This document shows positions 36,670 through 57,868 of a stretch of DNA of 59,006 nucleotides, piece by piece. The DNA is from a virus. Taxonomy: Duplodnaviria; Caudoviricetes. A model generated the notes under the pieces. That model worked only from the letters and a program-made list of their open reading frames with translations. It did no database searches and had not been told where the DNA came from. Location of the stretch: the IMG/VR virus record IMGVR_UViG_3300032770_001058, positions 1-59,006 of that record. One strand, written 5' to 3'. Within the stretch, counting starts at the first letter, position 1. Every line of letters begins with the position of its first letter. A program made the position numbers and the translations under genes.

Positions 36670-37235
36670 AGTTGTTTGGCTGTTTGGCAAGCGGCAACCA
36701 ACCGCAGGAGAACGGGAAGTGCGGCAGACGCGACGAAACCGAAGCGGCAACCAACCGCAGGAGAGCCGCACTTCCCACCTACCTTGTGCCGCTGGCCACG
36801 GCGACCGTTCGAATCCCACAAACGGCGAAAGCACAGTTGCAACGCGCATCCTGTTCCGCTGGCCTTCGGGCCGGAACGGTAGCGATGCCTGCGCTGCGCC
36901 CTCGCCGCGCGTGTTCTGGCGAACGGTCGGGCTAAGGCTTTCACCAGTCGCTCTCGTCGCGGCGAATGCGGGCTGCGGCCATATCCGGCAGGCTGTACCT
37001 TCCCAAATCGCGTAGCAGGTGCCGATAACCCTGCGAACCCTAGCCTGAGGAACGGCTAGTCGGGACAACTCGAATCCCGGAAATCTCGGAGCGCGGCAAT
37101 CGCCACGATACGGCGCAGTTCAAGAGTTCCGCCCATGGCGGAATCGCCTACAAGGTCGCGGCGCAGTCAAAGAAGCGGCGCGCTAACGGTCATACCGACG
37201 AGACTAAGTGAGAAGAGCGCAAGCGACAAAAAACC
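36670..37235 (+). ncRNA. Putative large structured RNA or 5' leader
   Basis: No convincing ORF; dense helices including 36714-25/36765-76 (12 bp), a C-UUCG-G hairpin at 36861-72, 37040-45/37054-59, 37061-65/37075-79, 37127-33/37137-43 and long-range 36952-59/37196-203. Confidence 0.5.
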
Positions 37236-37236
37236 T

Positions 37237-37302
37237 TCCCGATACTGCCTGATGAGAACGGGACGAAACCGGCCCACATGACAGTGTGGGCACGGTCGCA
37301 GT
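37237..37302 (+). ncRNA. Hammerhead ribozyme HH1 (type I, pseudoknot); predicted cleavage after C37297
   Basis: Stem I ACTGC/GCAGT, core CTGATGA, G-aacggga-C, GAAA, extended stem III, GTC triplet; loop CGGGA is complementary to upstream TCCCG. Confidence 0.9.
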
Positions 37303-37334
37303 TAAGCCGCAACCAGCGGCAGGAGAATTCCGCG

Positions 37335-37856
37335 ATGACAAATAGTAGAGGTTCGCTCCGCTCGGTTTACACGGTGAAGCCGAAGTCGAATTCGAAGAAA
37401 TCCGCTTTCCGTCGCCAGATGGCCGCGCGGCACAGGGCACAGGATGCCGTGCCGACCAGCAAACCCGCAACCAGCCTGAAGCCGAAGAGCGCCGCGAATG
37501 GCTGGGATGACCCTGAAATCCGCGCAAAGCGGATTGCGGCCATTCGCGCCGCGCGCGCTGGTGTCACCGGCCAGCAGCCGACCGAAGAAAAGAAGATGCC
37601 GACTCCTCCGCCGCGTGACCCTGAGCTAGCTGCTGCTCAGGACGCGATCGCCAAGCATCAGTTCGCGATTCTGTCGAAGCTGCCTGCTGAAAGCGTGGTC
37701 AGGTATTACGACCTGGGCTGGCGTCATGCCCACCTGATGGAAGCGAAACCCGACCGCTGCCGACTCCGCTCGATTCCTGCCTACAGCCGCAAACCCGTCA
37801 CCTTCACTGTGCCGACTTCCGAAGTCGAGGCCTACAGCGCTCCCGCGACTGCCTGA
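37335..37856 (+). CDS. Hypothetical basic protein with WDDPEIR motif; ends PATA inside HH2
   Basis: AGGAG RBS at 37321 and ATG at 37335; its stop codon is the TGA of the HH2 core. Confidence 0.7.
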   Translation: MTNSRGSLRSVYTVKPKSNSKKSAFRRQMAARHRAQDAVPTSKPATSLKPKSAANGWDDPEIRAKRIAAIRAARAGVTGQQPTEEKKMPTPPPRDPELAAAQDAIAKHQFAILSKLPAESVVRYYDLGWRHAHLMEAKPDRCRLRSIPAYSRKPVTFTVPTSEVEAYSAPATA

Positions 37857-37895
37857 TGAGATCGGGACGAAACCGGCAACTCGCCGGTCGCAGTC
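37841..37895 (+). ncRNA. Hammerhead ribozyme HH2; predicted cleavage after C37889
   Basis: GACTGC-CTGATGA-G-atcggga-C-GAAA-ccggc-aactc-gccgg-TC-GCAGTC. Confidence 0.92.
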
Positions 37896-37929
37896 ATTTC
37901 AAGCCGCAACCAGCGGCAGGAGAACGATC

Positions 37930-38520
37930 GTGATTAAGAGGAACAAACCCGAAGAGCAGTTAATCCCCGCTGATCTGGACGCCATCGCGAAGAACGCCAT
38001 GTACTGGCAGATTGCCTCGCAGCATGCCGAGGAAATCTACAAAGAAGTGAAGGCTGACTTCTTCCAGCGCGTCGAGACTCACCCGCAAATTGAGATGGTC
38101 GTGGGCAAGAGCCTGAAAGTCTCCACCGGCAAGGTGCGCTGGCAGTCGCGCGAAAACTTCGACGTGCTCCAGGATGAGATCGAGAAGGCGCTGGAGTCGG
38201 GCCGCATCACCGTGCCTGTGCTGTTAGGAATGGTGAAGTCGTACGACACCGACGCGGTGCGCCAGTTCGTACCCGCTGCGGTCGTACCGAACGCGGAGAA
38301 GCCGGTCACCGAGTATGGCGTGATGGTCGCTTCGGCGGACTATAAGGCCGAAGTTCATGCCCAGGTCGATGAGCTGCTGAATCAGTCGCCCGCGCCTGCT
38401 GTGCTCCCGCCCAATGTCGCCGTGATGAAGCCTGCGGCCAGTGTGCCACTCACCGAGCAACTGGAAGCCTCGCTCGCCGATGCGAAGAAGAAACGCTCCC
38501 GCAAGCCCGCGACTGCCTGA
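37930..38520 (+). CDS. Hypothetical protein, weakly Gam/gp157-like; ends PATA inside HH3
   Basis: RBS plus GTG start; helical N-terminus then KSLKVSTGKVRW. The family assignment is weak. Confidence 0.5.
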   Translation: MIKRNKPEEQLIPADLDAIAKNAMYWQIASQHAEEIYKEVKADFFQRVETHPQIEMVVGKSLKVSTGKVRWQSRENFDVLQDEIEKALESGRITVPVLLGMVKSYDTDAVRQFVPAAVVPNAEKPVTEYGVMVASADYKAEVHAQVDELLNQSPAPAVLPPNVAVMKPAASVPLTEQLEASLADAKKKRSRKPATA

Positions 38521-38563
38521 TGAGAACGGACCGAAACCGGCGACCCACTCGCCGGTCGCAGTC
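38506..38563 (+). ncRNA. Hammerhead ribozyme HH3; predicted cleavage after C38557
   Basis: GACTGC-CTGATGA-G-aacggac-C-GAAA-ccggcga-cccac-tcgccgg-TC-GCAGTC; shorter pseudoknot (CCG/CGG). Confidence 0.88.
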
Positions 38564-38597
38564 AATTCAAGCCGCAACCAGCGGCAGGAGAACGCAA

Positions 38598-39464
38598 GTG
38601 CAAGACACAAGCACCAATTACCGCTACTACACCGCCGAACCGCTCACCAATGACCAGCTTCGCCGCGTCGCGCCGTCCATCTTCGCCGAGCGGCCATGGG
38701 CGGAAATGTCTGACCGCTACACCTTCATTCCCACCATCCGCATTGTCGAGGAGATGCGTAAGGAAGGGCTGGTGCCCTATTTCGCCAAGCAGACGATCTC
38801 GCCTGTCGAAGGGCGGACCCCCTTTGCCATGCACATGATTCGCTTCCGCGATACGTCGCAACGCGGCCAGAAGCTGGTCGTCGGCGACTTGTATCCGGAA
38901 GTGACTCTCATCAACTCACACGATGGCGGCGCCAGCTACCGGCTGATGGCTGCTCTGCTGCGCGCGGCTTGCATGAACGGCCTGATGGTCAGCGATTCCG
39001 AGTTCGCGGCCATTCACGTCATGCATCGCGGCAACGTCACTCCCGTGCTTGAGGCCAGCTTCCAGGTCATCGAGCAGTTCCCGAAGATCATGGGCGAAGT
39101 GGGCGAGTTCCAGCGCATCGAGCTCAAGCGCGACCAACAACTGGCGCTGGCCGAATCGGCGCTGGAATTGAAGTACGACGAGCGGGACGATGGTTCGCTC
39201 GCCTGCCCGATCACCGCCGACGCCGTACTGATGCCGCGCCGCTCCGACGACTCGAAGCCCACGCTATGGAACACATACAACGTGGTACAGGAAAACCTGA
39301 TGAAGGGCGGCCAGCGCGGCGTCATCATCGGCGCGAATCACCGCACTCGCCGCGTCAAGACGCGTCCGGTGAAGGCGATTGCCACGGATGTCAAGTTAAA
39401 CAAGGCGCTGTGGACATTGACGGCGAGGATGGCCGAGTTGGTCGGCGCTCCCGCAGCCGCGTAA
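38598..39464 (+). CDS. DUF932/DUF945 family protein
   Basis: PLTNDQLRRVAPSIFA.....SDRY.FIPT, H.IRFR, LINSHDG.ASY, R.AC.NGL, LW..YNV.QEN...GG, LN.ALW.L. Confidence 0.85.
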   Translation: MQDTSTNYRYYTAEPLTNDQLRRVAPSIFAERPWAEMSDRYTFIPTIRIVEEMRKEGLVPYFAKQTISPVEGRTPFAMHMIRFRDTSQRGQKLVVGDLYPEVTLINSHDGGASYRLMAALLRAACMNGLMVSDSEFAAIHVMHRGNVTPVLEASFQVIEQFPKIMGEVGEFQRIELKRDQQLALAESALELKYDERDDGSLACPITADAVLMPRRSDDSKPTLWNTYNVVQENLMKGGQRGVIIGANHRTRRVKTRPVKAIATDVKLNKALWTLTARMAELVGAPAAA

Positions 39465-39477
39465 TCATTTCGTCATG

Positions 39478-39503
39478 GCTGGCCCGCTCGCTCGCGGGCC
39501 AGC
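39478..39503 (+). terminator. GC-rich hairpin after the DUF932 gene, without a U tract
   Basis: gctggcccgc/gcgggccagc 10-bp stem; could be a pause or 3' stability element instead. Confidence 0.35.
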
Positions 39504-39542
39504 GCGACTCAAACCGCTGTACTACCGAATAGGAGAACGGTC

Positions 39543-39836
39543 ATGGCAAAGAAAAACGCAAACGGCTGGGACGACCCTGAAATCCGGCAGCGCCGCATCG
39601 ACGCAATCCGCGCGGCGCTGGCGAAGAAACCCGCAACGAAGAAGGCGAAGAAGGCCAGCAAGAGCAGCCCGAAGGCGAAGGCCAGCAAACCCGCGAAGAA
39701 GGCGAAGAAAGCCAGCCCGAAGCCTGCGGCGACTCAGGCGAAGCAGCAGCCCGACACCAAACTGGCGAAAGCGCTGCACACGCTCGAATCGCGCGTGAAG
39801 GTCACGCCCATCAACTCACTTCCCGCAACTGCCTGA
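39543..39836 (+). CDS. Small Lys/Ala-rich, histone H1-like protein with WDDPEIR motif; ends PATA inside HH4
   Basis: AGGAG RBS; KKPATKKAKKASK repeats. Confidence 0.75.
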   Translation: MAKKNANGWDDPEIRQRRIDAIRAALAKKPATKKAKKASKSSPKAKASKPAKKAKKASPKPAATQAKQQPDTKLAKALHTLESRVKVTPINSLPATA

Positions 39837-39876
39837 TGAGAGCGGGACGAAACCGGCCATCCGGCCGGTCGCAGTT
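39821..39876 (+). ncRNA. Hammerhead ribozyme HH4; predicted cleavage after C39870
   Basis: AACTGC-CTGATGA-G-agcggga-C-GAAA-ccggcc-atcc-ggccgg-TC-GCAGTT; pseudoknot TCCCGC/GCGGGA. Confidence 0.92.
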
Positions 39877-39905
39877 AAGCCGCAACCAGCGGCAGGAGAA
39901 CACCG

Positions 39906-41078
39906 ATGTTGGAACAACCGCTATCAGCCAGTCTCATCCTCACCAACGCCAAACACGATAAGGTCTTTCGCGCCTGGCTCATGCCGCAAGGCACGGGATG
40001 GGTGGTCAGAACCGAATGGGGCGCGCGCTCTGCCGGTAAACTCAGCTCGCAGGTGAAGCCCGACTCTCCGACGACCTATGAGGCCGCGAAGAAGATCTAC
40101 GACAAGAAAATCCGCGAGAAAACCGAGTTGCCGTGCTCCTGCGGCTGCGGCGACCGCTACCTGCAAACCCGCGTCGAAGCGGGCGAGCCGAAGCTGCAGC
40201 CGATCGATTGCACGGCGGCGCAGGCGGAGCAGGAACAGAAAGCCGAAGCTGTCGCTGGTCCGACAAGCTGGGCACCGCAACTGCTCGAACCCATCGAAGG
40301 AGAGCGCGGCAAGCTGCTGCTGGTCGGTGATGACCGCTACGGCGCGCAGGAGAAGTACGACGGTGTCTGTATTTCCCTATGGTGGGCGGAAGAGCAGCGC
40401 GCGCGCTGCTTCAACAAACTCGGCCAACTCCGCGACGTGCCCACCTACGTTGCCGACTCGCTGATCGCGCGCGCTCGTGAAGCCGAAGCGAAGTCATTTT
40501 GGGTTCACGGCGAGCTGCTTCCGAACGGCGGGCCGCTGGTCGTGCACGACCTGATGGAATGGAACGGCGACGATCAGCGCGGCGAAACCTATCGCGCACG
40601 CTTTGGGCTGGTCGCGACGTTCCTCGGCAACTGCCTGCATATCGCGATTCCGGAATTGATCACCGGAACGCATGCGAAGAGCGCGTTCGTCGCCGCACTC
40701 GCCGCGAAGCGGGCCGAAGGTGTCGTATTCAAGCGGCTCAATGCGCCGTACCTGCCCGGTCGTACGCAGCACTTCAAATTCAAATTCTGGCAGTCGGCCA
40801 CTTGCAAGGTCACTCCGAAGCGGAAGATCGACGGCAAGAATTCCCACGCCATCTCGGTGTTGCGCAAGGGGAAGCTGGTCGAAGTCGGCACCGTCACCGG
40901 CAAGAGCAGCGTACCGGCCCAGGTCGGCTCGCTGGTCGAAGTGAAATACCTTTATGTGGGTCATGGCGATCGCTTCGTGCAGCCCGAATTGCTGGGCCTG
41001 CGCGACGATCAGGCCCGGCCCGACGATTGGTCCACCCTCAAGCTGAAAGACACTCACCGGGAGGCGCGGTCATGCTAG
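39906..41078 (+). CDS. WGR-domain ATP-dependent DNA ligase
   Basis: N-terminal WGR-like domain (HDKVF, TEWGAR, A.K.YDK.I.EK); ligase motifs QEKYDG, HGEL, HDL, EGVVFK, KFK; OB fold EVKYLY...QP...RDD. Confidence 0.8.
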   Translation: MLEQPLSASLILTNAKHDKVFRAWLMPQGTGWVVRTEWGARSAGKLSSQVKPDSPTTYEAAKKIYDKKIREKTELPCSCGCGDRYLQTRVEAGEPKLQPIDCTAAQAEQEQKAEAVAGPTSWAPQLLEPIEGERGKLLLVGDDRYGAQEKYDGVCISLWWAEEQRARCFNKLGQLRDVPTYVADSLIARAREAEAKSFWVHGELLPNGGPLVVHDLMEWNGDDQRGETYRARFGLVATFLGNCLHIAIPELITGTHAKSAFVAALAAKRAEGVVFKRLNAPYLPGRTQHFKFKFWQSATCKVTPKRKIDGKNSHAISVLRKGKLVEVGTVTGKSSVPAQVGSLVEVKYLYVGHGDRFVQPELLGLRDDQARPDDWSTLKLKDTHREARSC

Positions 41079-41296
41079 TCCACGTCTTCCGCTTCCCCTC
41101 ACCCGAGCTTGACGAATGCGCGACGACCATAAGAGCAGCTATCCGCGCTCACTGGCGCCGGGAGATCACCTTCGCCGAATACCTGGCGGTGAGAGATGCT
41201 GCACATGCGAAGTGCGAGCATGTATTGCTCCGCATCTTTGCCGCCCTGGACCGCTCGGACGACCGGCCCGAGGTCTCCGAACGGCTGGCGGCATGA
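41072..41296 (+). CDS. Hypothetical protein (74 aa)
   Basis: GGAGG RBS; ATG overlaps the end of the ligase gene. Confidence 0.55.
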   Translation: MLVHVFRFPSPELDECATTIRAAIRAHWRREITFAEYLAVRDAAHAKCEHVLLRIFAALDRSDDRPEVSERLAA

Positions 41297-41299
41297 CCT

Positions 41300-41357
41300 T
41301 CCCGCAACTGCCTGAGAGAACGGGACGAAACCGGCGACTCGTTCGCCGGTCGCAGTT
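41300..41357 (+). ncRNA. Hammerhead ribozyme HH5, degenerate (core CTGA-GA lacks position 7)
   Basis: AACTGC-CTGAGA-G-aacggga-C-GAAA-ccggcga-ctcgt-tcgccgg-TC-GCAGTT. Confidence 0.75.
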
Positions 41358-41385
41358 AAGCCGCAACCAGCGGCAGGAGAACGCT

Positions 41386-41547
41386 ATGAGATGCCCGTTT
41401 TGCCACGGTGAGATCGACGAGCAATACAGCCTGCTCGATCAATGCCAGCGGTTAGAGCAGGAACGCTGGCAGCGCGAATTCGACGCCGGACTCCGGCGAT
41501 TGGTCGAAACCGTCGATAAAGTCATGGCCAAAGTCGGCCACGCATAG
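41386..41547 (+). CDS. Hypothetical 53-aa protein with N-terminal CxxC
   Basis: Follows the conserved hairpin plus AGGAG; starts MRCPFCHG. Confidence 0.6.
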   Translation: MRCPFCHGEIDEQYSLLDQCQRLEQERWQREFDAGLRRLVETVDKVMAKVGHA

Positions 41548-41621
41548 GCGCTGTGCTGTATCTCGGCCAGCAATAACTTCCACCTTCAACAAAGCTGCTT
41601 ACTCGCAGCAGGAGAATTCAT

Positions 41622-43349
41622 ATGTCTACGACAACAGTTGCAGTCCTGCCTGTAAACCGAAAGAAAGCCGACGCGCTGGACGTTCAGATGCTGCCGATCG
41701 GCGTCCTCACCCTCTCCGAAACCAATCCGCGCTCCGGGATGGACGCAACCGAGCTCGACGAGCTGGCCAAATCTATTCTCGACCACGGAATCCTGCAGCC
41801 GCTGGTCGTGCGGCCACATCCAGGCGTCGTCGTGGTGGAGTCCAGCGTCCCGGGCCGCTGGTATGCCGCTTATGAGAACGGCACCGACCATCCCAATCTG
41901 ATCGGCACCGGCCACGAAAAGAAGGCAGAGGCTGAGGCCGAAGCGGCTGGCATTCGCCGCTGGGAGATCATCGCCGGCGCGCGGCGCTATAAGGCCGCGA
42001 AGCTGGCGAAGCTGCGCGAGGTTCCATGCCGCATCGTGCGCGTTAGCAATCAGGAAGCGCGCGACATTCAGATCATCGAAAACCTGCAGCGCACCGACAT
42101 TCACCCGCTGGATGAAGCCGAAGCTTTCGTGCAACTGCTCGGCTCAAGCGGCGACATCAAGGCTCTGGCGAAGCGCGTTGCCAAGCCTGAACTCTATGTG
42201 CGGCGCCGTCTCTCCCTGCACGAGTTGATCGAGCCTGCGAAGAAGGCGTTCCGGGAGCATCGCATCTTCCCGGGCCACGCCTATCAACTCAGCCGATTCC
42301 CGACGAACGCGCAGAAGGCAGTCTGGAAGCAGTTAGAGGGCAAAGACGTCACCCCCAATCAACTGCGCAAGGCCATCGCCGACAATTTCACCCTGAAACT
42401 GTCGGGCGCGCCATTCGATACCGGCGATGCGAAGCTGCTCGAAGCGGCGGGAAGCTGCACCGACTGCCCGAAGCGCACCGGCAACAATCCGCTGCTGTTC
42501 TCCGACATCAAGGCGGCCGACACCTGCACCGACCGCGACTGCTACAGCCGTAAGGTGGAAGCCCATCTCGTGCAGATCGCAACGAAGCTGGAAAAGGCCA
42601 GCGGGAAGCCGGTCCTGCGTCTGTCGGAGAAGTTCCAACCAACCATCAAGGGCGCGCTCTCCAGCGGCCAGTGGCATCGCTGCGACCGCGCGTCAGAATG
42701 TGCTCATGCGCAGCAAGGCATCATCGTGGAGACCGATTATTACGGCTCCGGCCCGAAGAAGCTGGGCCAGACGATCACCGTCTGTGCGACGAAGGAGTGC
42801 AAGTTTCACTTCGGCTCGCACACTGGGGAGTCGGCTGAGTCGATGCAGGAGCGGGAGCGCACGAAGCGCCGCGTGGTGAAGCAGAAGGTCGGGGTCAATA
42901 AGGCCGTCTTTACCGCCGTGCAGGAGAAGATGCCCGGAGTCCTGGGCGCCGAAGAGCTGCGCCTGATCGGGCGCGAACTGTTCCAGCGCGTTTACGGGCC
43001 TTATCGCAATCGCATCGCCCGCGACGTGTACCAGCTCGAACCCAAGATCGTGAAGAGCCACTACGTCACGACCGGCGGCACGACGAAGGATTACGCCGCT
43101 GCGCTGCTGGCGAAGCTGCCGGAGATGAACGCGAAGGAACTGACCCGCTTCTGCCTGATCTCGCTTACCGCGGGTAACGCCTACACTCCGCCGCTGTACA
43201 CCAATTCCAGCGCCGAGCCGGAGAATCCGCTCTACACCCTCGCCAAACTCTACAAGGTGGACGCTCGTTCCATCCGCGAGAAGATCGTCACCACTGATCG
43301 CGAGAAGGCGAAAGCAAAGAAGGCGACGAGAGCCGCGAAAGCCGCTTAA
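41622..43349 (+). CDS. Large ParB/RepB/Spo0J-family protein with Cys-rich middle region
   Basis: NPR...ELA.SI...GILQPLVVRP, IIAGARRYKAA, IIENLQR.DIHPLDEA.AF; C..CPKR, C.D..CY. Confidence 0.85.
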   Translation: MSTTTVAVLPVNRKKADALDVQMLPIGVLTLSETNPRSGMDATELDELAKSILDHGILQPLVVRPHPGVVVVESSVPGRWYAAYENGTDHPNLIGTGHEKKAEAEAEAAGIRRWEIIAGARRYKAAKLAKLREVPCRIVRVSNQEARDIQIIENLQRTDIHPLDEAEAFVQLLGSSGDIKALAKRVAKPELYVRRRLSLHELIEPAKKAFREHRIFPGHAYQLSRFPTNAQKAVWKQLEGKDVTPNQLRKAIADNFTLKLSGAPFDTGDAKLLEAAGSCTDCPKRTGNNPLLFSDIKAADTCTDRDCYSRKVEAHLVQIATKLEKASGKPVLRLSEKFQPTIKGALSSGQWHRCDRASECAHAQQGIIVETDYYGSGPKKLGQTITVCATKECKFHFGSHTGESAESMQERERTKRRVVKQKVGVNKAVFTAVQEKMPGVLGAEELRLIGRELFQRVYGPYRNRIARDVYQLEPKIVKSHYVTTGGTTKDYAAALLAKLPEMNAKELTRFCLISLTAGNAYTPPLYTNSSAEPENPLYTLAKLYKVDARSIREKIVTTDREKAKAKKATRAAKAA

Positions 43350-43477
43350 TCGCCGCGCGGGCCTGCCCCGCGCGCTCTGCTTCTCCTCTTCGAGCCCGAT
43401 GCCTCCGCAGTAGCGAGAGCCAGTGCCGCAATGAGAAGCAGGGCGCGGACGGCAGGACCGCCGTACGCAACTAACGG

Positions 43478-44032
43478 TTATTCGTTCGGGAACCTGAAAC
43501 GTCCCAATTGTTCAGACACAGAACTGAATGACTTTCCGCCACTGACTGTTTCCCGCGCTAACAACGCGGTCTTTTCACCGCAGTCAATCCAGACCCTCTG
43601 CCAAACCACATCAACGTCGGTGTTAGTGTGGGTGTCAGTCCGTACAGTACATTTCGCAAACCCCTCGTCGTTCAAGTGGGTGATTAGGCCGTAAAGAGCT
43701 TCAGCCGTGTCATCATTAGGGGTGGTCCATCGACGCTCCGCAAAGGTAAGCAATCCGCGCGTAAATTGCATGGTGGGCAAGTCTCGTCCTGCCTTAATAT
43801 CGTCCACGGTTCCCAACCACAACTCGTCATCATCCGGTTTCATTAGCTGCTGTCCGGCCAACTTCTCCGCGACCTGGGCCTTTGTCATTCCTAAACGTAA
43901 CTTCACTCCGCCTATTTCGATCGCGGTTCTGCTTAACTGCTGGGAGGGCTGCTTTTGTGCGTGTAGAAGCGGCGGACATATACAGCAGAGCACGATTGCG
44001 GTCGTCGAAATTGCGCGTTTCATGTTGTTCAC
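43478..44032 (-). CDS. Secreted hypothetical protein (moron)
   Basis: Signal-peptide-like N-terminus; AT-richer. Confidence 0.5.
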   Translation of the reverse strand: MNNMKRAISTTAIVLCCICPPLLHAQKQPSQQLSRTAIEIGGVKLRLGMTKAQVAEKLAGQQLMKPDDDELWLGTVDDIKAGRDLPTMQFTRGLLTFAERRWTTPNDDTAEALYGLITHLNDEGFAKCTVRTDTHTNTDVDVVWQRVWIDCGEKTALLARETVSGGKSFSSVSEQLGRFRFPNE

Positions 44033-45032: not shown

Positions 45033-45926
45033 ATGCGTCATCAGGAGATATTTGACTCCGACCCTCAGTCCGAGATGGACCTGGGCCAACCCAAACAGAA
45101 TGCCATCCAGTTTCCCGTCACTCTTGCCGAACGCTACCAGCCGCGCCACATCGCCGAATTCATCGGCTTAGAACATCCCAAGCGGCTGCTCACCAACCTG
45201 ATCGCCAAGCCTCGACCATGCCCTCTGCTCTTCATCGGCCCGCCTGGAGCTGGGAAGACCGCGATGGGCGTGACCTTCGCGGTCGAACTACCCGGCGCGC
45301 TGCACCATGTCAGCGCGCAAAAGTGCGATGTCGCGGCACTGGACGCGCTGGGCGAGAAATTCTCCTACATCCCGCCCAGGGGCCGATTCTGGATTTCGCT
45401 GATTGACGAAGCCGACCAAATGACCGAGAAGGCGCAACTGCAACTGCTATCCCGCTTGGATGGGACAGCCGCACTGCGGCCGGTATTCGGTGGCGGATTT
45501 GAACGCGGCGAGCCGTTGCCGATCATCTGGATTTTCACGGCTAACGGTCGAGGGTCAAAGCAGATAGAGCCGCCATACAGTTTCGCGTCCCGCTTCCTCT
45601 CGCGCTGTATGATCGTGCCCTTCGAACTCCCGACTCAGGCTGAACTCGCCGCGTATCTGCGCAAACTGTGGGAATTGGAAGGCGGTGGGCCGACGCCCGC
45701 CGACTATTTCGACTACATCGCCGACGACTGCGCTGTCCGCGATGCCCTGATGAAACTCGAAGTCGATCTGCTGGCCGGCCCGCGCGCGCGACCTGTGCCG
45801 GAGATCACCGACCAGCCTCAACCGAAACCGGTAACTTGTGACCGAGGAGCAAACCAATGGGACGACCCGGAAATTCGCAAACGCCGAATCGAAGGAATCC
45901 GCGCGGCTATGGCGAAAAGAAAGTAA
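45033..45926 (+). CDS. AAA+ ATPase of the clamp-loader clade with C-terminal WDDPEIR motif
   Basis: LAERYQP....EFIG, GPPGAGKT, IDEADQMT..AQ..LL, FTAN, FLSRC, VRDAL..LE. Confidence 0.8.
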   Translation: MRHQEIFDSDPQSEMDLGQPKQNAIQFPVTLAERYQPRHIAEFIGLEHPKRLLTNLIAKPRPCPLLFIGPPGAGKTAMGVTFAVELPGALHHVSAQKCDVAALDALGEKFSYIPPRGRFWISLIDEADQMTEKAQLQLLSRLDGTAALRPVFGGGFERGEPLPIIWIFTANGRGSKQIEPPYSFASRFLSRCMIVPFELPTQAELAAYLRKLWELEGGGPTPADYFDYIADDCAVRDALMKLEVDLLAGPRARPVPEITDQPQPKPVTCDRGANQWDDPEIRKRRIEGIRAAMAKRK

Positions 45927-52274: not shown

Positions 52275-54974
52275 ATGCCCCGAGGCAAAGCGAGCGGTCG
52301 GAAACCGTCCAAGCGCCCCATCGAACGATACGAGCACACGGACAAGAAACGGATCAATAACCCGCCGGTAGGTCTGGTGAACCCGGAGACGGAACCGCCT
52401 CTGCCAACGCATAAAACCTACCAGTACCCCCACCCGGTCCCAACAGTAAAGCCCGGCAAGGACCTGGACTACGATCCGCACCTCGATCCGCAGCTCGTGT
52501 GGGCCGGCAAGAAGGAGCATACGTCATTCGAGGTGCCGACCGTCTCCCTGCATGTCCACGAACGAATAGACCCGCGGACAATCATGGAGGCGGTGCGCAA
52601 GCGCAATGGCAACGGAGCCGCTGCACAGCCGTCGTTGTTCGAGCGGCGGGAGGAGAATCCACCGTTCCGCGAAGCGATTGACTTCTACCGCCACGCGCAC
52701 GGCTGGTCAAACCGGTTGATTGCCGGCGACTCGCTGCTGGTCATGAACTCGCTTTTGGAGAAAGAAGGCATGGCCGGGCAGGTGCAGATGGTCTATGTCG
52801 ACCCGCCGTATGGAATCAAGTACGGCTCGAACTTCCAGCCATTCGTTAACAAGAAAACAGTATCTCCCTCCGATAAAGACGAGGATCTGACGCAAGAACC
52901 CGAAATGCTGCATGCGTTTCGCGATACCTGGGAACTCGGTGTCCATTCGTACCTGACGTACTTGAGGGATAGGCTCCTGGTTGCAAGAGACTTGCTTCAC
53001 AGCTCTGGTTCGTGCTTCCTCCAGATAAGCGACCAGAATCTTCATCTCGTCAGAAGTCTGCTGGACGACATTTTTGGCGCCAACAACTTCATCGCACTGC
53101 TTTCGTTTCAGAAGAAGGGCAGCCAGTCGGGGGACTTCGTTCCCTCTATACACGAGTACATCGTGTGGTACGCCAAAGATAAGTCAGTCGCAAAGTTCCG
53201 GCGCCTGTACAGACCGCGCGATTTGGCGGGCATCGGAGGTTCTGGGTTTGAGTACCTGATGTTAGCCGACGCAACGATTCGTAATCTAACTGAGGACGAG
53301 AAGCTCGGTAATAGTCCTCTACCGGACGGTGCGCGAGCCTTTCGGTACAATCCCTTGTTCAGTGCTAAACCTGGGCCGAATGAACCCGTCGAAATTGATG
53401 GAACACCTTACCCATCCGGCGGTAATTCCTGGAAGGTAAATCCCGCAAAAATTCCACTGCTCTACAAAATCGGCAGAATCGTAAAACAGAAAACGCGCCT
53501 AGTGTATCTGCGATATGCCGATGATTTCGACTACGTACCGCTCACGAACATCTGGGGTGGTATCGGTGGATCTCCGGACAAGGTATATGTTGTCCAGACT
53601 AATCCCGTCATACTGAAGAGATGCATCTTGATGACCACTGACCCAGGCGACTTGGTTCTCGATCCGACCTGCGGCTCGGGCACCACGGCCTATGTCGCCG
53701 AGGAGTGGGGGCGGCGCTGGATCACCTGCGACACCTCGCGCGTGGCGGTCACCCTAGCTAAGCAGCGGCTGATGACCGCCGACTTCGATTATTACGAGTT
53801 GCAGCACCCCGATGAGGGGGTAGGCAGTGGATTCCAATACAAAAAGGTGCCTCACATCACTCTCAAGTCCATTGCAAACAATCCTGAGATTCGCGAGGGC
53901 ATGTCTTCTGAGCAAATCGATGCAGCCATTACTAGGTATGCCGACCGAGAAGACCTGTACGATCAACCGTTCATAGACAAGAAGCGTGTTCGAGTGACTG
54001 GTCCATTTACGGTAGAGGCCGTTCCTGCTCCGACGGTGCAATCACTGGAGGATATCCAGGTCGGCGTGGGCGCCGCCGCGACGGCATCAGGCAGCGCGCA
54101 GCAATCCATCGGCGACTTCCGCCATGCGGCCACGCCCCTGCTGGACACCTCAATCGCTCGTTCCGGCCCGACTCTGCGCCACACCGAGTGGCGCGACGAA
54201 TTGCTAAAGACCGGCCTGCGCGGCAAGGGTGGGCACCACATCGACTTCTCGCGGGTCGAGCCTCTGGCCGGCACGCGCTGGCTCCATGCCGATGCGGAGA
54301 CCAAAGGCATAAAGCCAGAGCGCGTCGTCATCTCCTTCGGTCCTGAGCACAGCCTGCTCGACAGCAATCAAGTCGAACTGGCCTGGAAGGAGGCGCGGAT
54401 GCTGGTGCCGCGCCCTGACATCCTCGTTTTTGCGGCTTTCGAGTTCGATCCCGAAGCGGCGAAAGACATCGATGAGCTAACAAAAGACAAGGCCGGCATG
54501 ACACTGCTCAGTGCGCAGATGAACGCCGACCTGCTCACGGAGGATCTGAAAAAGAAGCGGGCCTCGAACCAGAGCTTCTGGCTGGTGGGACGCCCGGACG
54601 TTGAACTGCGCCAGATCGGCAAGGGCGAGCACAAGGGTAAATGGGAAGTGGAAGTGGGCGGCTTCGACTACTACAACACGCGTACAGGCACCATCGAATC
54701 GGGCGACACGTCGCGCATTGCCATATGGCTGTTTGACCCAGACTACGACGGCCGCAGCCTTTATCCGCGCCAGGTATTCTTCCCAATGGCCGACGAGGAC
54801 GAGGGCTGGACTAGGCTGGCGCGCAACCTGAAGGCGGAGATCGATCCAGACCTGATCGAGGCTTATCGCGGAACGACTTCGCTACCGTTTGACCCTGGCC
54901 CGCACAAGCAAGTTGCGGTGAAGGTCATTGACGATCGAGGCATTGAAAGCCTAAAAGTCGTGGATGTGAAGTGA
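52275..54974 (+). CDS. mod: Type III R-M modification methyltransferase (beta class)
   Basis: NRLI.GDSL, YVDPPYGI, AT-richer central target-recognition region, VLDPTCGSGTTA, KVID.RG.E. Confidence 0.88.
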   Translation: MPRGKASGRKPSKRPIERYEHTDKKRINNPPVGLVNPETEPPLPTHKTYQYPHPVPTVKPGKDLDYDPHLDPQLVWAGKKEHTSFEVPTVSLHVHERIDPRTIMEAVRKRNGNGAAAQPSLFERREENPPFREAIDFYRHAHGWSNRLIAGDSLLVMNSLLEKEGMAGQVQMVYVDPPYGIKYGSNFQPFVNKKTVSPSDKDEDLTQEPEMLHAFRDTWELGVHSYLTYLRDRLLVARDLLHSSGSCFLQISDQNLHLVRSLLDDIFGANNFIALLSFQKKGSQSGDFVPSIHEYIVWYAKDKSVAKFRRLYRPRDLAGIGGSGFEYLMLADATIRNLTEDEKLGNSPLPDGARAFRYNPLFSAKPGPNEPVEIDGTPYPSGGNSWKVNPAKIPLLYKIGRIVKQKTRLVYLRYADDFDYVPLTNIWGGIGGSPDKVYVVQTNPVILKRCILMTTDPGDLVLDPTCGSGTTAYVAEEWGRRWITCDTSRVAVTLAKQRLMTADFDYYELQHPDEGVGSGFQYKKVPHITLKSIANNPEIREGMSSEQIDAAITRYADREDLYDQPFIDKKRVRVTGPFTVEAVPAPTVQSLEDIQVGVGAAATASGSAQQSIGDFRHAATPLLDTSIARSGPTLRHTEWRDELLKTGLRGKGGHHIDFSRVEPLAGTRWLHADAETKGIKPERVVISFGPEHSLLDSNQVELAWKEARMLVPRPDILVFAAFEFDPEAAKDIDELTKDKAGMTLLSAQMNADLLTEDLKKKRASNQSFWLVGRPDVELRQIGKGEHKGKWEVEVGGFDYYNTRTGTIESGDTSRIAIWLFDPDYDGRSLYPRQVFFPMADEDEGWTRLARNLKAEIDPDLIEAYRGTTSLPFDPGPHKQVAVKVIDDRGIESLKVVDVK

Positions 54975-57868
54975 CCATGAGCACAGCGCCGCAGCAGGGC
55001 AAGACAACAATTGATCAGCTCATCATCAACTCCCCGTACGAGGAGCCACAGGAGCATTGGCGGTATCACCGGGAAACTCGGCTGTTTACGCGCGAGCAGG
55101 AGCGGAGAAAGGCTGGCTATGTGCGCGCTTCGGAATCATCGCGCTCTTTCGATGACCCAGGAATCTTCGTTGAGCTGCCGTTGGTCAACCAGATCAGGCC
55201 GCGAGTAACCGCGTGGCGTGAAGCTGGGTACGCCGGAGCGAGCGGTATCACACGCAGGCTGTTACAACACTGGCACGATACCGAGCAGCGCGACACGAAT
55301 CGCCGATTCTTCTTCTGCCAACTGGAGGCAATCGAAACTCTGATCTGGCTGACGGAGGCTCCGGCTTCAGAGCGCGTCGGCATTGAGCTTCCCGGAGATG
55401 GAGGGCCGTTCAGCCGGCTCTGCTGCAAGATGGCAACGGGCTCCGGCAAGACGATCCTGATGGCGATGTTGATTGCATGGCAGGTGCTCAACAAAGTCAC
55501 CTATCCACAGGACAAGCGCTTCTCCAAGAACGTTCTGCTGATTGCTCCTGGCCTAACGGTAAAGAAACGGTTGGAAGTGCTGATACCCGGCTCGCCGGGC
55601 AACTATTACGTCGAGTTCCAGATTGTCCCGCCCGGTCTCGAAGACAAGATGCGGCAAGGGGCGAGTTGCCATGTACTCATCCGCAACTGGCACATGCTGG
55701 ATTGGGACACGGACGAGCAGATCAGCAAGAGGCGCACCGTCGACAAGCGCGGAGCTAAGAGCGACGAGGCCTATGTACGAGACGTACTGGAAGATATGGC
55801 CTCGGCGCAGAACATCGTGGTGATCAATGACGAGGCGCACCACGCGTGGCGTGTTCCCCCCAAGTCCCGAGTGGCCGGTGTCTCTAAAGATGAGGTAAAC
55901 GAGGCGACAAAGTGGGTTGGCGGCCTCGACCGCATTCATCGCGCGAGAGGGATTCTCTCCTGCTTCGACTTGACTGCCACTCCTTTCGCGCCGACCGGCA
56001 AGAAGAGCGGCGAGGAGACCCTATTCGGCTGGATTGTGAGCGACTTCGGATTGAACGATGCGATTGAGTCCGGGCTCGTGAAAACCCCCAGGGTGGTAGT
56101 ACGCGACGACGGCAAGCTGGACAGCAAGTACCGCTCGCGTTTCTATCACATCTACAGTGACCCTGAAGTCAAAACAGACGTAAACCGCAAAGCTGAGCCG
56201 GAGGCGCCGCTACCCGATCTGGTGCGGACTGGCTACTACTTCCTCGGCAAGGACTGGCTGGAAACGGCGAAGAAGTGGAAGAAAGAGAGTAGGCAGCCTA
56301 CGCCGCCCGTGATGATCACGGTCGCGAATACCACATACACCGCGGCGCGCGTTGAATATGCGTTCACGCGCAAGCGAATCACCATTGATGAGCTATGCAA
56401 GCCGGAGCGCATCCTTCACATCGATTCCAAAGTCCTCGCGCAGGCTGAAGAGGAAGACGAACCACCCGTGCAGCTCGGGTTAGCACAAACAGACAACGAG
56501 GATGAGAACTCGGAGGAGGGCGGCGGGGAACCTGAAAACGGTCAGCATCGAGCCAAGAAGCTGTCCAAGAAAGAACAGGCGGAGCTACTACGGCGGAAGG
56601 TGGACACAGTCGGGCGCAAAGGCGAGCCGGGGGAGCAAGTTCAAAATGTGATCTCCGTCGGTATGCTCTCAGAAGGCTGGGACGCCAAGACAGTCACGCA
56701 TATTATGGGCCTGCGTGCATTCACGTCCCAGCTCCTCTGCGAACAGGTAGTCGGGCGCGGGCTGCGTCGAACATCGTATGAGGTGAACGAGCAAACTGGA
56801 CTGTTCCAACCGGAGTACGTAAACATTTTCGGCGTGCCGTTTACGTTTCTGCCTCACGAAGGCGGCGGAGATGAACCACCGCCTCCTCCGCCCTCACCAA
56901 AAACAAGGATTGAAGCGTTACCAGAACGGAAATCTTACGAGATCGTCTGGCCCAATGTAATGCGGATCGACCATGATTATCGGCCGACGCTGACGCTCGA
57001 TTTACTGAAAGTGAAACGATTGGTCCTGGATGCGTACGAGAGTCCGCTGCTGGCGGAGTTAGCGCCAACAATCGACGGTAAGCCGGATGTCAGACATATC
57101 TCAGAGATCGATCTCCGGAAGAAGCTCGGGGACGAATACCGGATGCAGAAGGTAATTTTCACCGCGGCCGGCGACATTTATGAGCAGATGAAGAAGACTT
57201 GGAAGGGCAGCAAGGAATATTTGCTATCGCAGGTGATTCGAATAGTCGAGCAGTACATCGAGAGCGACAGGGTTCGCATTGACCCACCGCTGTTTAACCA
57301 GGACCCAGTACGCCGAAGAATCATCATCACGCTGCAGATGGGGAAAGTGGCTGAGGAACTAAAGCAGGCCATCCACTTCGATAACACGCTGGCGCTCGTC
57401 CCCGTTTTCGATTCCGAGAGGCCGGTCCGCGCGACTGGCGACATGCTCCCCTGGTACACCGGGAAGCCTTGCGAGCACACGAGACATTCCCACATTAATA
57501 TGAGCGTGTTCGACAGCCGATGGGAGGCAAGCGAAGCGTTTGAGCTCGATCGCAGCGAGCATGTTGCGGCTTGGGTAAAAAACGACCACTTGGGATTCGA
57601 GATCACTTACTCATTTCGCGGTATCATCCGCAAGTTTCGACCCGACTACCTAGTTCGCTTGATCAATGGAAAAATGCTGGTGCTCGAAGTCAAGGGGCAA
57701 GATAATCACGAGCAGCAGACAAAGCGGGAGTTCTTAGCTGAATGGGTTAGAGCCATCAACGGACACGGCGGATTCGGGCTCTGGGCGGCTGATGTGTCGC
57801 GGAATCCGACCGACATTCACGAGATTTTAGCGAAGCAGAACGCGGACGTCTCTGTGCGAAATTCTTAG
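54971..57868 (+). CDS. res: Type III R-M restriction subunit
   Basis: CQLEAIET, KMATGSGKT, NDEAHH, TATPF, MLSEGWD, EQVVGRGLRR; nuclease PDYLV...LEVKG. Confidence 0.88.
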   Translation: MTMSTAPQQGKTTIDQLIINSPYEEPQEHWRYHRETRLFTREQERRKAGYVRASESSRSFDDPGIFVELPLVNQIRPRVTAWREAGYAGASGITRRLLQHWHDTEQRDTNRRFFFCQLEAIETLIWLTEAPASERVGIELPGDGGPFSRLCCKMATGSGKTILMAMLIAWQVLNKVTYPQDKRFSKNVLLIAPGLTVKKRLEVLIPGSPGNYYVEFQIVPPGLEDKMRQGASCHVLIRNWHMLDWDTDEQISKRRTVDKRGAKSDEAYVRDVLEDMASAQNIVVINDEAHHAWRVPPKSRVAGVSKDEVNEATKWVGGLDRIHRARGILSCFDLTATPFAPTGKKSGEETLFGWIVSDFGLNDAIESGLVKTPRVVVRDDGKLDSKYRSRFYHIYSDPEVKTDVNRKAEPEAPLPDLVRTGYYFLGKDWLETAKKWKKESRQPTPPVMITVANTTYTAARVEYAFTRKRITIDELCKPERILHIDSKVLAQAEEEDEPPVQLGLAQTDNEDENSEEGGGEPENGQHRAKKLSKKEQAELLRRKVDTVGRKGEPGEQVQNVISVGMLSEGWDAKTVTHIMGLRAFTSQLLCEQVVGRGLRRTSYEVNEQTGLFQPEYVNIFGVPFTFLPHEGGGDEPPPPPPSPKTRIEALPERKSYEIVWPNVMRIDHDYRPTLTLDLLKVKRLVLDAYESPLLAELAPTIDGKPDVRHISEIDLRKKLGDEYRMQKVIFTAAGDIYEQMKKTWKGSKEYLLSQVIRIVEQYIESDRVRIDPPLFNQDPVRRRIIITLQMGKVAEELKQAIHFDNTLALVPVFDSERPVRATGDMLPWYTGKPCEHTRHSHINMSVFDSRWEASEAFELDRSEHVAAWVKNDHLGFEITYSFRGIIRKFRPDYLVRLINGKMLVLEVKGQDNHEQQTKREFLAEWVRAINGHGGFGLWAADVSRNPTDIHEILAKQNADVSVRNS

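What the first reader, a model, noticed from the sequence alone, without database searches (positions are those of the whole stretch)
37841..39836. Stop codons sit inside the ribozyme catalytic core, giving three proteins a PATA C-terminus
Seen: ORFs ending at 37856, 38520 and 39836 read CCC GC(G/A) ACT GCC TGA through the pseudoknot strand and stem I, and stop on the UGA of CUGAUGA, which is a double stop. All three use the same frame. Inference: a terminating ribosome would unfold the ribozyme, so cleavage may depend on translation of the upstream gene; the unit also supplies a stop to any captured ORF; PATA might act as a C-terminal tag.
Basis: partly seen in the sequence, partly recalled or inferred. 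Interest (0 to 1): 0.8.

Follow-up and report, generated by a model that had tools for sequence, protein, structure and literature searches.

The report
Stop codons inside prophage hammerhead ribozymes
Three genes of a prophage operon end on the UGA in the catalytic core of self-cleaving hammerhead ribozymes between the genes, so their shared PATA tail is most likely a by-product of the RNA, not a protein signal.

Summary
ORFs 37335-37856, 37930-38520 and 39543-39836 read CCC GC(G/A) ACT GCC TGA and stop on U4-G5-A6 of a type I hammerhead core.

The window is a prophage. It carries five paralogous units of about 80-90 nt: pseudoknot strand, hammerhead, hairpin, Shine-Dalgarno.
- u1 lies in the leader.
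- u2 to u4 hold the three stops.
- u5 (41301-41379) follows a gene with its own TGA and has a damaged core.

"Same frame" is forced: only that frame has a stop in a unit. The others stay open for 78-945 nt.

The arrangement is stable:
- It is kept in all strain variants.
- A variant-only extra cassette ends LPETA.
- Homologues at 66%, 45% and 44% identity also end PATA.

The same 12 nt are also kept in the two untranslated units, and two remoter homologues lack PATA. The tail therefore looks RNA-imposed.

Among 36 other hammerheads of this architecture, upstream ORFs nearly always use their own stops; one convincing core stop was seen.

Translation-gated cleavage could not be tested, because no RNA data exist. 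Ribosome and ribozyme fold should be mutually exclusive, but that is inference. Clustered prophage hammerheads are already known, so interest is moderate.

The parts
37238..37325 (+). Unit u1: pseudoknot strand CCCG, stem I, hammerhead core (CUGAUGA at 37249), long stem III, predicted cleavage after C37297, then hairpin GCCGCAACCAGCGGC and AGGAG. Lies in the operon leader; no ORF reads into it.
   Evidence: position 37297 varies C to A in a variant, still an allowed H17
37335..37856 (+). ORF1 (173 aa, no Pfam family). Ends SAPATA on the core UGA of u2 (37854-37856).
37842..37922 (+). Unit u2: CCCG-CG-ACUGC, CUGAUGA at 37853, loop AUCGGGA, stem III CCGGC/GCCGG, predicted cleavage after C37889, hairpin and SD.
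   Evidence: 37889 varies C to T in a variant
37930..38520 (+). ORF2 (196 aa, GTG start, no Pfam family). Ends RKPATA on the core UGA of u3 (38518-38520).
38506..38590 (+). Unit u3: CUGAUGA at 38517, loop AACGGAC (3-bp pseudoknot here, 4 bp in variants), stem III of 7 bp, predicted cleavage after C38557, hairpin and SD.
38598..39464 (+). DUF932 gene (288 aa). Own TAA stop and no hammerhead after it; a GC-rich hairpin follows at about 39476-39505.
39543..39836 (+). ORF4 (97 aa, Lys/Ala-rich). Shares the NGWDDPEIR..RI.AIRAA motif with ORF1. Ends SLPATA on the core UGA of u4 (39834-39836).
39822..39898 (+). Unit u4: CUGAUGA at 39833, loop AGCGGGA, stem III CCGGCC/GGCCGG, predicted cleavage after C39870, hairpin and SD.
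39906..41078 (+). 390-aa gene with a weak, sub-threshold ATP-dependent DNA ligase match. Its TAG overlaps the ATG of the next gene (ATGCTAG).
41072..41296 (+). ORF6 (74 aa). Stops on its own TGA (41294-41296), 4 nt before the pseudoknot strand of u5 and not in the frame of the core UGA. A variant has a 1-nt indel between this stop and the unit.
41301..41379 (+). Unit u5: the same unit, but the core reads CUGA-GA (position 7 deleted). The variant contig L197 has intact CUGAUGA. Cleavage would fall after C41351 if the unit is active. Followed by a small ORF starting at 41386.

Best explanation
**What it is.** The three stop codons are nucleotides U4-G5-A6 of the catalytic core of type I, pseudoknot-stabilised hammerhead ribozymes. 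These belong to five paralogous units of about 80-90 nt that separate the genes of an early operon in a temperate phage. Each unit is:
- pseudoknot strand CCCG, a 2-nt linker and stem I (ACUGC);
- CUGAUGA;
- a 1-bp stem II with a 7-nt loop that pairs with CCCG;
- GAAA, stem III, and GU-H followed by the cleavage site;
- stem I 3' strand, a hairpin GCCGCAACCAGCGGC, then AGGAGAA and the next start codon.

**Why the ORFs end PATA.** An ORF that enters a unit in the frame of the core UGA must read CCC-GNN-ACU-GCC-UGA. It therefore ends P-(A/E)-T-A. No other frame has a stop in the unit, so ORFs in other frames need their own stop just upstream, as ORF6 has. The tail is a by-product of RNA constraints. 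The overlap is a compact and stable arrangement, because the stop is protected twice: as a codon and as catalytic core.

**What cleavage would produce (inferred).** Cleavage falls 36-40 nt 3' of the C of CUGAUGA.
- The upstream product keeps its whole ORF and stop, and ends in the stem III hairpin.
- The downstream product starts with a 5'-OH, a near-terminal hairpin and a free Shine-Dalgarno. This resembles the engineered RiboJ insulator.

**Ribosome and ribozyme (inferred).** A ribosome on the last codons or on the stop holds the pseudoknot strand, stem I and the core. Ribozyme folding and translation of that spot therefore exclude each other, and cleavage happens in ribosome-free intervals. 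I take this as a side effect on timing, not a switch.
For: **The units are hammerheads.**
- 18 distinct unit variants (5 from the window, 13 from strain variants).
  - The core is invariant except at position 7, which is U to C in one variant and deleted in window u5.
  - H17 is C in 16 variants, U in 1 and A in 1, never G.
  - Stem III shows compensatory replacements, for example CCGGCGA/UCGCCGG against CCGCGCGGU/GCCGCGCGG.
  - Stem I keeps 5 of 5 pairs in 17 of 18 variants.
- 3 of the 5 units match the RAGATH-1 hammerhead model with the same 1-bp stem II and 7-nt loop.
- the minimum-energy fold gives the pseudoknot helix in 3 of 5 units and stem I in 1. It gives stem III and the downstream hairpin in all 5.
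- across 36 other units of this architecture, the 5' flank is complementary to very different loop sequences. This is class-wide covariation of the pseudoknot, judged by eye from the printed sequences.

**The frame is forced.**: in u2, u3 and u4 the other two frames first stop 665/78, 134/945 and 221/126 nt downstream.

**The tail is RNA-imposed.**
- The same 12 nt are present in untranslated u1 and u5.
- The second codon of the tail varies as GCG, GCA, GAU and GAA, exactly at the 2-nt linker.
- Homologues P0012 and P0013 lack the tail.

**The arrangement is stable.**
- every variant copy of u2 (5 of 5), u3 (2 of 2 examined) and u4 (4 of 4) ends PATA.
- PATA is kept at 66%, 45% and 44% identity and across a one-codon indel next to it.

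**Context.**
- terminase, portal, capsid and integrase genes show a prophage.
- Perreault 2011 (PMC3088659, passages seen) describes multiple hammerheads flanking single genes in prophages, with cleavage shown in vitro and in E. coli for other examples.
- PMC6993053 (passage seen) describes the hairpin that Lou et al. added to RiboJ to expose the RBS.
Against: **No activity data.** No cleavage assay and no RNA reads exist for this element, so activity and cleavage sites are predicted only.

**No Rfam threshold is met.** No hammerhead family reaches its gathering score. The best match is 26.5 bits against 56.3.

**The pseudoknot is weakly supported within this family.** CCCG is invariant, and the only loop changes weaken the pairing or give a wobble.

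**The distant homologues fit two readings.**
- PATA kept down to 44% identity is equally what a selected protein motif would give.
- I could not fetch the DNA of P0002, P0010 or P0011 to show that a hammerhead follows them.

**The variants are not independent.** All DNA-level variants are 92-96% identical strains.

**The arrangement is locally frequent.** It is used by 3 of the 4 ORF-preceded units here, yet it is rare elsewhere: 1 convincing case among 36 other units. This leaves room for a local function that I cannot see.
Confidence: 0.68

Rival explanations
1. **Translation-gated ribozyme.** The stop is placed in the core so that ribosomes finishing the upstream gene hold the ribozyme unfolded. 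Cleavage of each junction then reports on, or depends on, how heavily the upstream cistron is translated. A variant of the idea has the ribosome act as a helicase that releases the cleaved products.
For: - Geometry read from the sequence: with UGA in the A site, GCC, ACU, GCG and CCC lie in and behind the P and E sites. The pseudoknot strand, stem I 5' strand and core are then inside the ribosome.
- Three of the 4 ORF-preceded units in the window use this arrangement, and so does the extra cassette in L190.
- It is kept in homologues down to 44% identity.
- In the wider class, 11 of 36 units have an ORF of at least 40 aa ending 6-33 nt before the core. Ribosome-ribozyme overlap is therefore common.
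Against: - Nothing here measures cleavage.
- The frame constraint alone explains the shared frame.
- u1 has no upstream ORF, and u5's ORF has its own stop. Both keep the same unit, so the unit does not need a core stop.
- Other prophage hammerheads cleaved in E. coli when transcribed by T7 RNA polymerase (Perreault 2011, passage). That polymerase outruns ribosomes (recalled).
- Ribosomes occupy a site only briefly, so a fast ribozyme would still cleave between them (inference).
Confidence: 0.15
2. **PATA is a functional C-terminal peptide.** It would act as a degradation or targeting tag, selected at the protein level and shared by otherwise unrelated early proteins.
For: - Three unrelated or partly related proteins in the window end PATA.
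- Homologues at 66%, 45% and 44% identity keep it although the residues before it diverge.
- Small non-polar C-termini are recognised by some bacterial proteases (recalled, not tested).
Against: - The coding nucleotides are equally conserved where they are not translated, in u1 and u5.
- Every tail residue maps onto an RNA element: CCC-G is the pseudoknot strand and ACUGC-C is stem I plus C3.
- The only variable residue (A or E) sits on the only unconstrained linker bases.
- P0012 and P0013 of the ORF1 family lack the tail.
- ORF6, DUF932 and the other genes of the operon lack it.
Confidence: 0.05
3. **The repeated units are mainly recombination joints.** They would let gene cassettes be gained, lost or shuffled, each cassette being an ORF plus a unit. 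The core stop would make in-frame fusions viable. Ribozyme activity would be secondary or lost.
For: - L190 carries an extra 104-aa ORF plus its own unit between u2 and ORF2.
- The window's u2 looks like the 5' part of L190's first unit joined to the 3' part of its second. I compared the sequences printed by eye.
- Assembly contigs break at the units.
- The hairpin-plus-SD part occurs without a hammerhead in other viral contigs (L187 twice, L188).
Against: - Only one cassette polymorphism was seen.
- The catalytic core is under purifying selection that a mere repeat would not need: H17 is never G, and stem III shows compensatory changes.
- This reading is compatible with the best explanation and is not exclusive of it.
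Confidence: 0.25

Closest known systems
Clustered hammerhead ribozymes flanking single genes in prophages (Perreault et al. 2011, PMC3088659; passages read)
   Same: - Several hammerheads lie in one orientation between individual genes of a prophage operon.
- A pseudoknot between loop II and a flank of stem I serves as the tertiary contact.
- The proposed role is processing of a long transcript into gene-length mRNAs.
- Neighbours are of the anti-restriction or early-gene type. Here they are DUF932 and a ParB-like gene.
   Different: - The main text of that paper never mentions a stop codon: 0 occurrences of 'stop codon', 'open reading frame' or 'translation'. Its supplements could not be seen.
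- Here the units also carry a conserved hairpin plus SD, and three upstream genes stop on core nucleotides.
RAGATH-1 hammerhead (Rfam RF03152)
   Same: Type I hammerhead with a 1-bp stem II closing a 7-nt loop and the core CUGAUGAG...CGAAAC (alignments).
   Different: - Scores are 25.8-26.5 bits against a gathering score of 56.3.
- Only model positions 24/26-77 of 77 match.
- u3 and u5 are not listed at all.
RiboJ-type synthetic insulators: hammerhead followed by a hairpin that exposes the RBS (Lou et al. 2012, as described in PMC6993053; passage read)
   Same: Works alike. A self-cleaving hammerhead removes the upstream RNA context, and a hairpin just 3' of the cut sits before a free Shine-Dalgarno. 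Such hairpins are reported to raise mRNA half-life.
   Different: RiboJ is engineered from a plant satellite RNA ribozyme and placed in 5' UTRs. The units here are natural, intercistronic and overlap the end of the upstream gene.
Coding circular RNAs (betaviroid-like RNAs, zeta viruses) whose ORFs overlap hammerheads (bioRxiv 10.64898/2026.09.16.752053; passages read)
   Same: That paper states that start and stop codons of ORFs overlap ribozyme motifs in some cases. One sequence serves both as code and as ribozyme.
   Different: Those are small circular RNA replicons with type III hammerheads on both strands. They are not a DNA phage operon, and no statement was seen that the core UGA is the stop.

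Membership tests
Hammerhead ribozyme, type I | Conserved core: C3 U4 G5 A6 N7 G8 A9, G12 A13 A14, and U16.1-H17 at the cleavage site | tested here: met
   The core is present in 4 of 5 window units and 17 of 18 distinct variants. Window u5 lacks N7. H17 is C, U or A, never G.
Hammerhead ribozyme, type I | Three helices around the core, with stem I open-ended | tested here: met
   - Stem I has 5 bp in 17 of 18 variants.
- Stem III has 3-9 bp with compensatory replacements.
- Stem II is a single G-C pair.
- Stem III is found in all 5 minimum-energy folds.
Hammerhead ribozyme, type I | Tertiary contact between the stem I side and the stem II side (here a pseudoknot) | tested here: inconclusive
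   CCCG can pair with loop CGGG: 4 bp in 17 of 18 variants and 3 bp in window u3. There is no double change within the family. Complementarity with different sequences across 36 other units was judged by eye.
Hammerhead ribozyme, type I | Self-cleavage at H17 | not testable with these tools
Hammerhead ribozyme, type I | Score at or above the gathering threshold of an Rfam hammerhead family | tested here: not met
   No match at gathering thresholds over the whole window. The best match is RF03152 at 26.5 bits against 56.3. Eight other true-looking units of this architecture were also missed, so the models seem to cover this subclass poorly.
RAGATH-1 hammerhead (RF03152) | Full-length match to the 77-position model, including its 5' part | tested here: not met
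   Only positions 24/26-77 align.
Clustered prophage hammerheads (Perreault 2011) | Several co-oriented hammerheads flanking single genes or short gene blocks inside a prophage | tested here: met
   Five units lie on the + strand within 37.2-41.4 kb. Terminase, portal, capsid and integrase genes are in the same record, which IMG/VR classes as a provirus.
C-terminal protein tag or degron | Conservation explained by the protein and not by the nucleic acid | tested here: not met
   The same nucleotides are conserved in the untranslated units u1 and u5. Family members P0012 and P0013 lack the tail.
C-terminal protein tag or degron | Effect on protein stability or localisation | not testable with these tools
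   This needs an experiment.

The most novel reading that the evidence does not exclude
**Proposal.** The hammerheads are ribosome-gated. Their pseudoknot strand, stem I and the catalytic U4-G5-A6 are the last five codons of the upstream gene. Each junction of the phage operon can therefore be cut only when that gene is not being translated or has just been vacated.

**Consequence.** The phage would couple the separation and fate of each downstream mRNA to the translational state of its upstream neighbour. This would be a natural translation-sensing ribozyme.

**What fits.** Retention of the arrangement down to 44% protein identity would then reflect selection for this coupling.
Probability: 0.15. 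Interest if true: 0.7.

Novelty: new member of a known kind. Interest (0 to 1): 0.35.

Why it matters
**Function of bacterial hammerheads.** Hammerheads in bacteria and phages have no proven function. This element offers a compact, testable case: five near-identical units in one operon. Three have the upstream stop inside the catalytic core, one lies in a leader, and one follows an independent stop. Together they form a natural control series for asking whether translation affects self-cleavage.

**Annotation.** Short conserved C-terminal tails shared by unrelated phage proteins can be the footprint of an overlapping RNA element. Such hammerheads escape Rfam thresholds.

**Engineering parallel.** The unit (ribozyme, hairpin, Shine-Dalgarno) is a natural counterpart of engineered ribozyme insulators.

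If the overlap is only a by-product, as I think most likely, the finding is a neat but ordinary detail of a known arrangement.

Tried and rejected
**Searches that gave nothing useful**
- Rfam at gathering thresholds on the window and on 11 loci: no hammerhead found.
- Scan of genome contigs with CTGATGAGNNCGGNNCGAAAC:
  - It returned 61 stretches, about the number I estimated for chance.
  - My stem test passed only L028, which has no stem III context and which I take as chance.
  - L061 has two copies with pseudoknot-like complementarity but fails the stem I test. It was not followed up.
- blastn of window 37225-43400 against plasmids: six short DUF932 matches only. Against phages: none. The plasmid regions L198 and L199 showed no Rfam hammerhead.
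- Viral scans for the exact stem I plus core: one chance-looking hit, L186.
- The search for related loci with the ORF1-family alignment in viral contigs: no relative found.

**RNA and read data**
- The look-up of sequencing runs: no RNA holder listed.
- Read laying on four DNA runs: contigs are short and break at the repeated units. No usable joints, so nothing was concluded.

**Items examined and dropped**
- The fifth pattern match at 242-269 on the - strand: no stems, inside an ORF, taken as chance.
- Promoter and terminator scan of 36900-43500: no promoter-like site and no + strand terminator, so the transcription start is unknown.
- P0014 (569 aa, nine short stretches) was not examined.
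- Before counting the wider class I dropped duplicates of identical units and every pattern match that failed the stem I (at least 4 bp) and stem III (at least 3 bp) test.

**Literature**
- Four searches and the passages read from four papers found no statement that a bacterial or phage hammerhead's core UGA serves as a stop codon.
- Jimenez 2011 and de la Pena 2010 are not held.
- The supplements of Perreault 2011 are closed and may show stop positions.

**Tool that was closed**


Full report
**1. Observation**

- ccc gcg act gcc tga tga at 37842-37859
- the same at 38506-38523
- ccc gca act gcc tga tga at 39822-39839

ORFs end at 37856, 38520 and 39836. Their products end SAPATA, RKPATA and SLPATA.

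The motif CTGATGA...CGAAAC occurs 5 times in the window against 0.09 expected. Four copies are co-oriented at 37249, 37853, 38517 and 39833. The fifth, at 242-269 on the other strand, has no stems and I take it as chance.

The three ORFs are real genes. Between the window and its strain variants, variable sites by codon position (1/2/3) are:
- ORF1: 19/14/54
- ORF2: 5/1/38
- ORF4: 9/6/15
- DUF932 gene: 11/5/66
- 390-aa gene: 12/12/63

**2. Anatomy**

The four units align at 78% mean column identity. Each unit consists of:
- CCCG, two free bases, ACUGC;
- CUGAUGA, then G, a 7-nt loop holding CGG(G), then C;
- GAAA, a stem III hairpin, GU-C;
- GCAGU, a short spacer, a hairpin GCCGCAACCAGCGGC;
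- AGGAGAA, and a start codon 4-7 nt on.

This is a type I hammerhead whose stem II is a single pair. Its loop can pair with the CCCG that lies 7 nt before the core.

Rfam gives no match at gathering thresholds. With relaxed thresholds, three units match the RAGATH-1 hammerhead model over positions 24/26-77. They show the same stem II and loop architecture, but score 25.8-26.5 bits against a threshold of 56.3.

Minimum-energy folds cannot draw pseudoknots:
- the CCCG:CGGG helix appears in 3 of 5 units;
- stem I appears in 1 of 5;
- stem III and the downstream hairpin appear in all 5.

BLAST of variant contigs against the window showed a fifth unit at 41301-41379 that my pattern had missed. Its core reads CUGA-GA because position 7 is deleted. 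The variant L197 has the intact CUGAUGA.

**3. Context**

The record is an IMG/VR provirus. It holds:
- large terminase, portal and capsid genes on the - strand at 27.8-35.0 kb;
- an integrase at 49.3-50.6 kb.

The units punctuate a divergently oriented + strand operon. In order:
- u1 in the leader, with no ORF upstream;
- ORF1, u2, ORF2, u3;
- the DUF932 gene, with its own TAA and no ribozyme after it;
- ORF4, u4;
- a 390-aa gene with a weak ligase match;
- ORF6, u5, a small ORF;
- a ParB-like gene.

No + strand terminator-like site lies in 36.9-43.5 kb.

This is the arrangement that Perreault et al. 2011 described: multiple hammerheads flanking single genes in prophages, with cleavage shown for other examples in vitro and in E. 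coli (PMC3088659, passages read).

**4. Is the shared frame more than chance?**

It is forced. In the frame of the core UGA the unit reads P-(A/E)-T-A-stop. In u2, u3 and u4 the other two frames have no stop for 665/78, 134/945 and 221/126 nt. They would run over the next Shine-Dalgarno and start codon, or fuse to the next gene. Any ORF that overlaps a unit must therefore be in this frame, and an ORF in another frame needs its own stop.

That is what u5 shows.
- ORF6 (41072-41296) stops on its own TGA 4 nt before the pseudoknot strand, out of frame with the core UGA.
- The window and L197 differ by a 1-nt indel between that TGA and the unit, so no frame is held there.

Of the four ORF-preceded units in the window, 3 use the core stop and 1 does not.

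**5. Homologous units**

The metagenome scan found 9 short contigs. All are 92-96% identical to the window, so they are strain variants and not independent lineages. In them every copy examined ends PATA:
- u2: 5 of 5
- u3: 2 of 2
- u4: 4 of 4

A third u3 copy, in L193, has CUGACGA, which removes the second UGA. Its ORF was not separately checked.

L190 carries an extra 104-aa ORF with its own unit between u2 and ORF2. That ORF ends HLPETA on the core UGA. It has no other homologue.

Protein searches reach further.
- ORF2 has 2 hits, both ending PATA. One is only 66% identical, with a diverged, indel-bearing C-terminal region.
- ORF1 has 4 of 4 close homologues ending PATA, with a one-codon indel right before the tail.
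- The exhaustive search for ORF1 gave 6 hits. I fetched four distant ones:

| Protein | Identity to ORF1 | C-terminus |
|---|---|---|
| P0010 | 45% | YPATA |
| P0011 | 44% | TPATA |
| P0012 | 38% | IAEAL |
| P0013 | 36% | reads on for about 130 residues |

The arrangement is therefore old and stable in two gene families. I could not fetch the DNA of these homologues, so a hammerhead behind them is inferred.

**6. Is PATA a protein signal?**

The evidence points to RNA.
- The 12 nt are kept in u1 (CCCGAUACUGCC) and u5 (CCCGCAACUGCC), where they are not translated.
- Each residue maps onto an RNA element.
- The only variable residue corresponds to the 2-nt linker: GCG, GCA, GAU, GAA.
- Family members exist without the tail.

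**7. Evidence that the ribozymes are under selection**

In 18 distinct unit variants:
- the core is invariant except at position 7;
- H17 is C, U or A, never G;
- stem III is replaced by compensatory sequences;
- a stem I change, C to U, gives a G-U wobble.

One variant has a stem I mismatch, and window u5 lacks N7.

**8. The wider class**

Viral contigs gave 8 units with the narrow pattern. After a stem filter and removal of duplicates, 36 units other than the window's remained.

- An ORF of at least 40 aa ends on the core UGA in 5 of the 36. On inspection only L149 is convincing.
  - L128 has a 1583-aa ORF ending 39 nt upstream.
  - The L006 candidate has GC3 of 0.47, against 0.67-0.77 for its neighbours.
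  - The L005 and L118 candidates compete with equal or longer ORFs.
- In 11 of the 36, an ORF of at least 40 aa ends 6-33 nt before the core.

Overlap of gene ends with the 5' part of such ribozymes is therefore common. Use of the core UGA is rare outside this element.

**9. Mechanism (inferred)**

Cleavage after H17 lies 36-40 nt beyond the C of CUGAUGA in u2-u4.
- The upstream product keeps its ORF and stop and ends in the stem III hairpin.
- The downstream product begins with a 5'-OH, a hairpin within about 8-13 nt of the end and a free Shine-Dalgarno. This is the logic of the engineered RiboJ insulator (PMC6993053, passage).

With UGA in the A site, the pseudoknot strand, stem I 5' strand and core lie inside the ribosome. 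This rests on ribosome footprint and helicase positions that I recall and did not look up. Folding and termination therefore exclude each other. Whether that matters kinetically is open. I rate a regulatory role at about 0.15.

**10. Comparison and novelty**

The ribozymes are new members of a known kind: clustered prophage hammerheads with RAGATH-1-like architecture.

I found no printed statement that a bacterial or phage hammerhead's core UGA serves as a stop codon.
- Searches.
- Perreault 2011 has 0 occurrences of 'stop codon' in its main text, and its supplements were not visible.
- Jimenez 2011 and de la Pena 2010 are not held.
- For coding circular RNAs, overlap of start and stop codons with hammerhead motifs is mentioned.

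The detail is neat, and it gives a natural control series for a translation-cleavage experiment. The shared frame and the tail are, however, explained by ordinary constraints.

**11. Limits**
- No RNA data exist for this element.
- All DNA-level relatives are close strains.
- The wider class is a truncated sample.
- Pseudoknot covariation across that class was judged by eye from printed sequences.

Noticed in passing
window 41301-41379: A fifth hammerhead unit whose core has lost position 7 (CUGA-GA). A strain variant (L197) has the intact core. It may be a ribozyme that was recently inactivated.
   Followed up: partly
L187 (two sites on the - strand) and L188: The hairpin GCCGCAACCAGCGGC followed by a Shine-Dalgarno and a start codon occurs in other viral contigs without any hammerhead, once directly after a TGA stop. 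The hairpin-plus-SD part of the unit therefore seems to be a separate, more widespread module.
   Followed up: partly
L190:281-595 (- strand): A strain variant has an extra 104-aa ORF plus its own hammerhead unit inserted between u2 and ORF2. The window's u2 looks like a recombinant of the two flanking units. This suggests cassette gain or loss by recombination between units.
   Followed up: partly
L005, L006, L009 (viral contigs): In these GC-rich hammerheads of the same architecture, the 3' strand of stem I (GGGAGG) is also the Shine-Dalgarno of the downstream gene. The start codon lies about 8-10 nt further on. Ribozyme folding would hide the ribosome binding site there.
   Followed up: no
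window 37493-37554, 39549-39622 and 45849-45916: The motif NGWDDPEIR..RI.AIRAA of ORF1 and ORF4 has a third DNA-level copy near 45.85-45.92 kb (BLAST rows). This suggests a small paralogous family of basic proteins in this phage. Distant ORF1 relatives carry a similar LTLEQRKAIAAKAVATRRA start.
   Followed up: no
window 39476-39505: A GC-rich inverted repeat (ctggcccgc...gcgggccag) follows the DUF932 stop, with no T run. It is the one junction in this gene block that uses a different element instead of a hammerhead.
   Followed up: no
window 41072-41078: The stop TAG of the 390-aa gene overlaps the ATG of ORF6 (ATGCTAG), with GGAGG 8 nt upstream. This is a translationally coupled pair without a ribozyme.
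   Followed up: no
window 52275-57868: A DNA methylase (N6_N4_Mtase) gene is followed by a ResIII helicase-type gene beyond the integrase. They may form a restriction-modification or defence module at the edge of the prophage.
   Followed up: no
L061:2753-2773 and 3089-3109: Two identical copies of a hammerhead-like core lie 336 nt apart in a proteobacterial MAG contig. Loop GCGGGG has a complementary CCCGC upstream, but the copies failed my stem I test.
   Followed up: no
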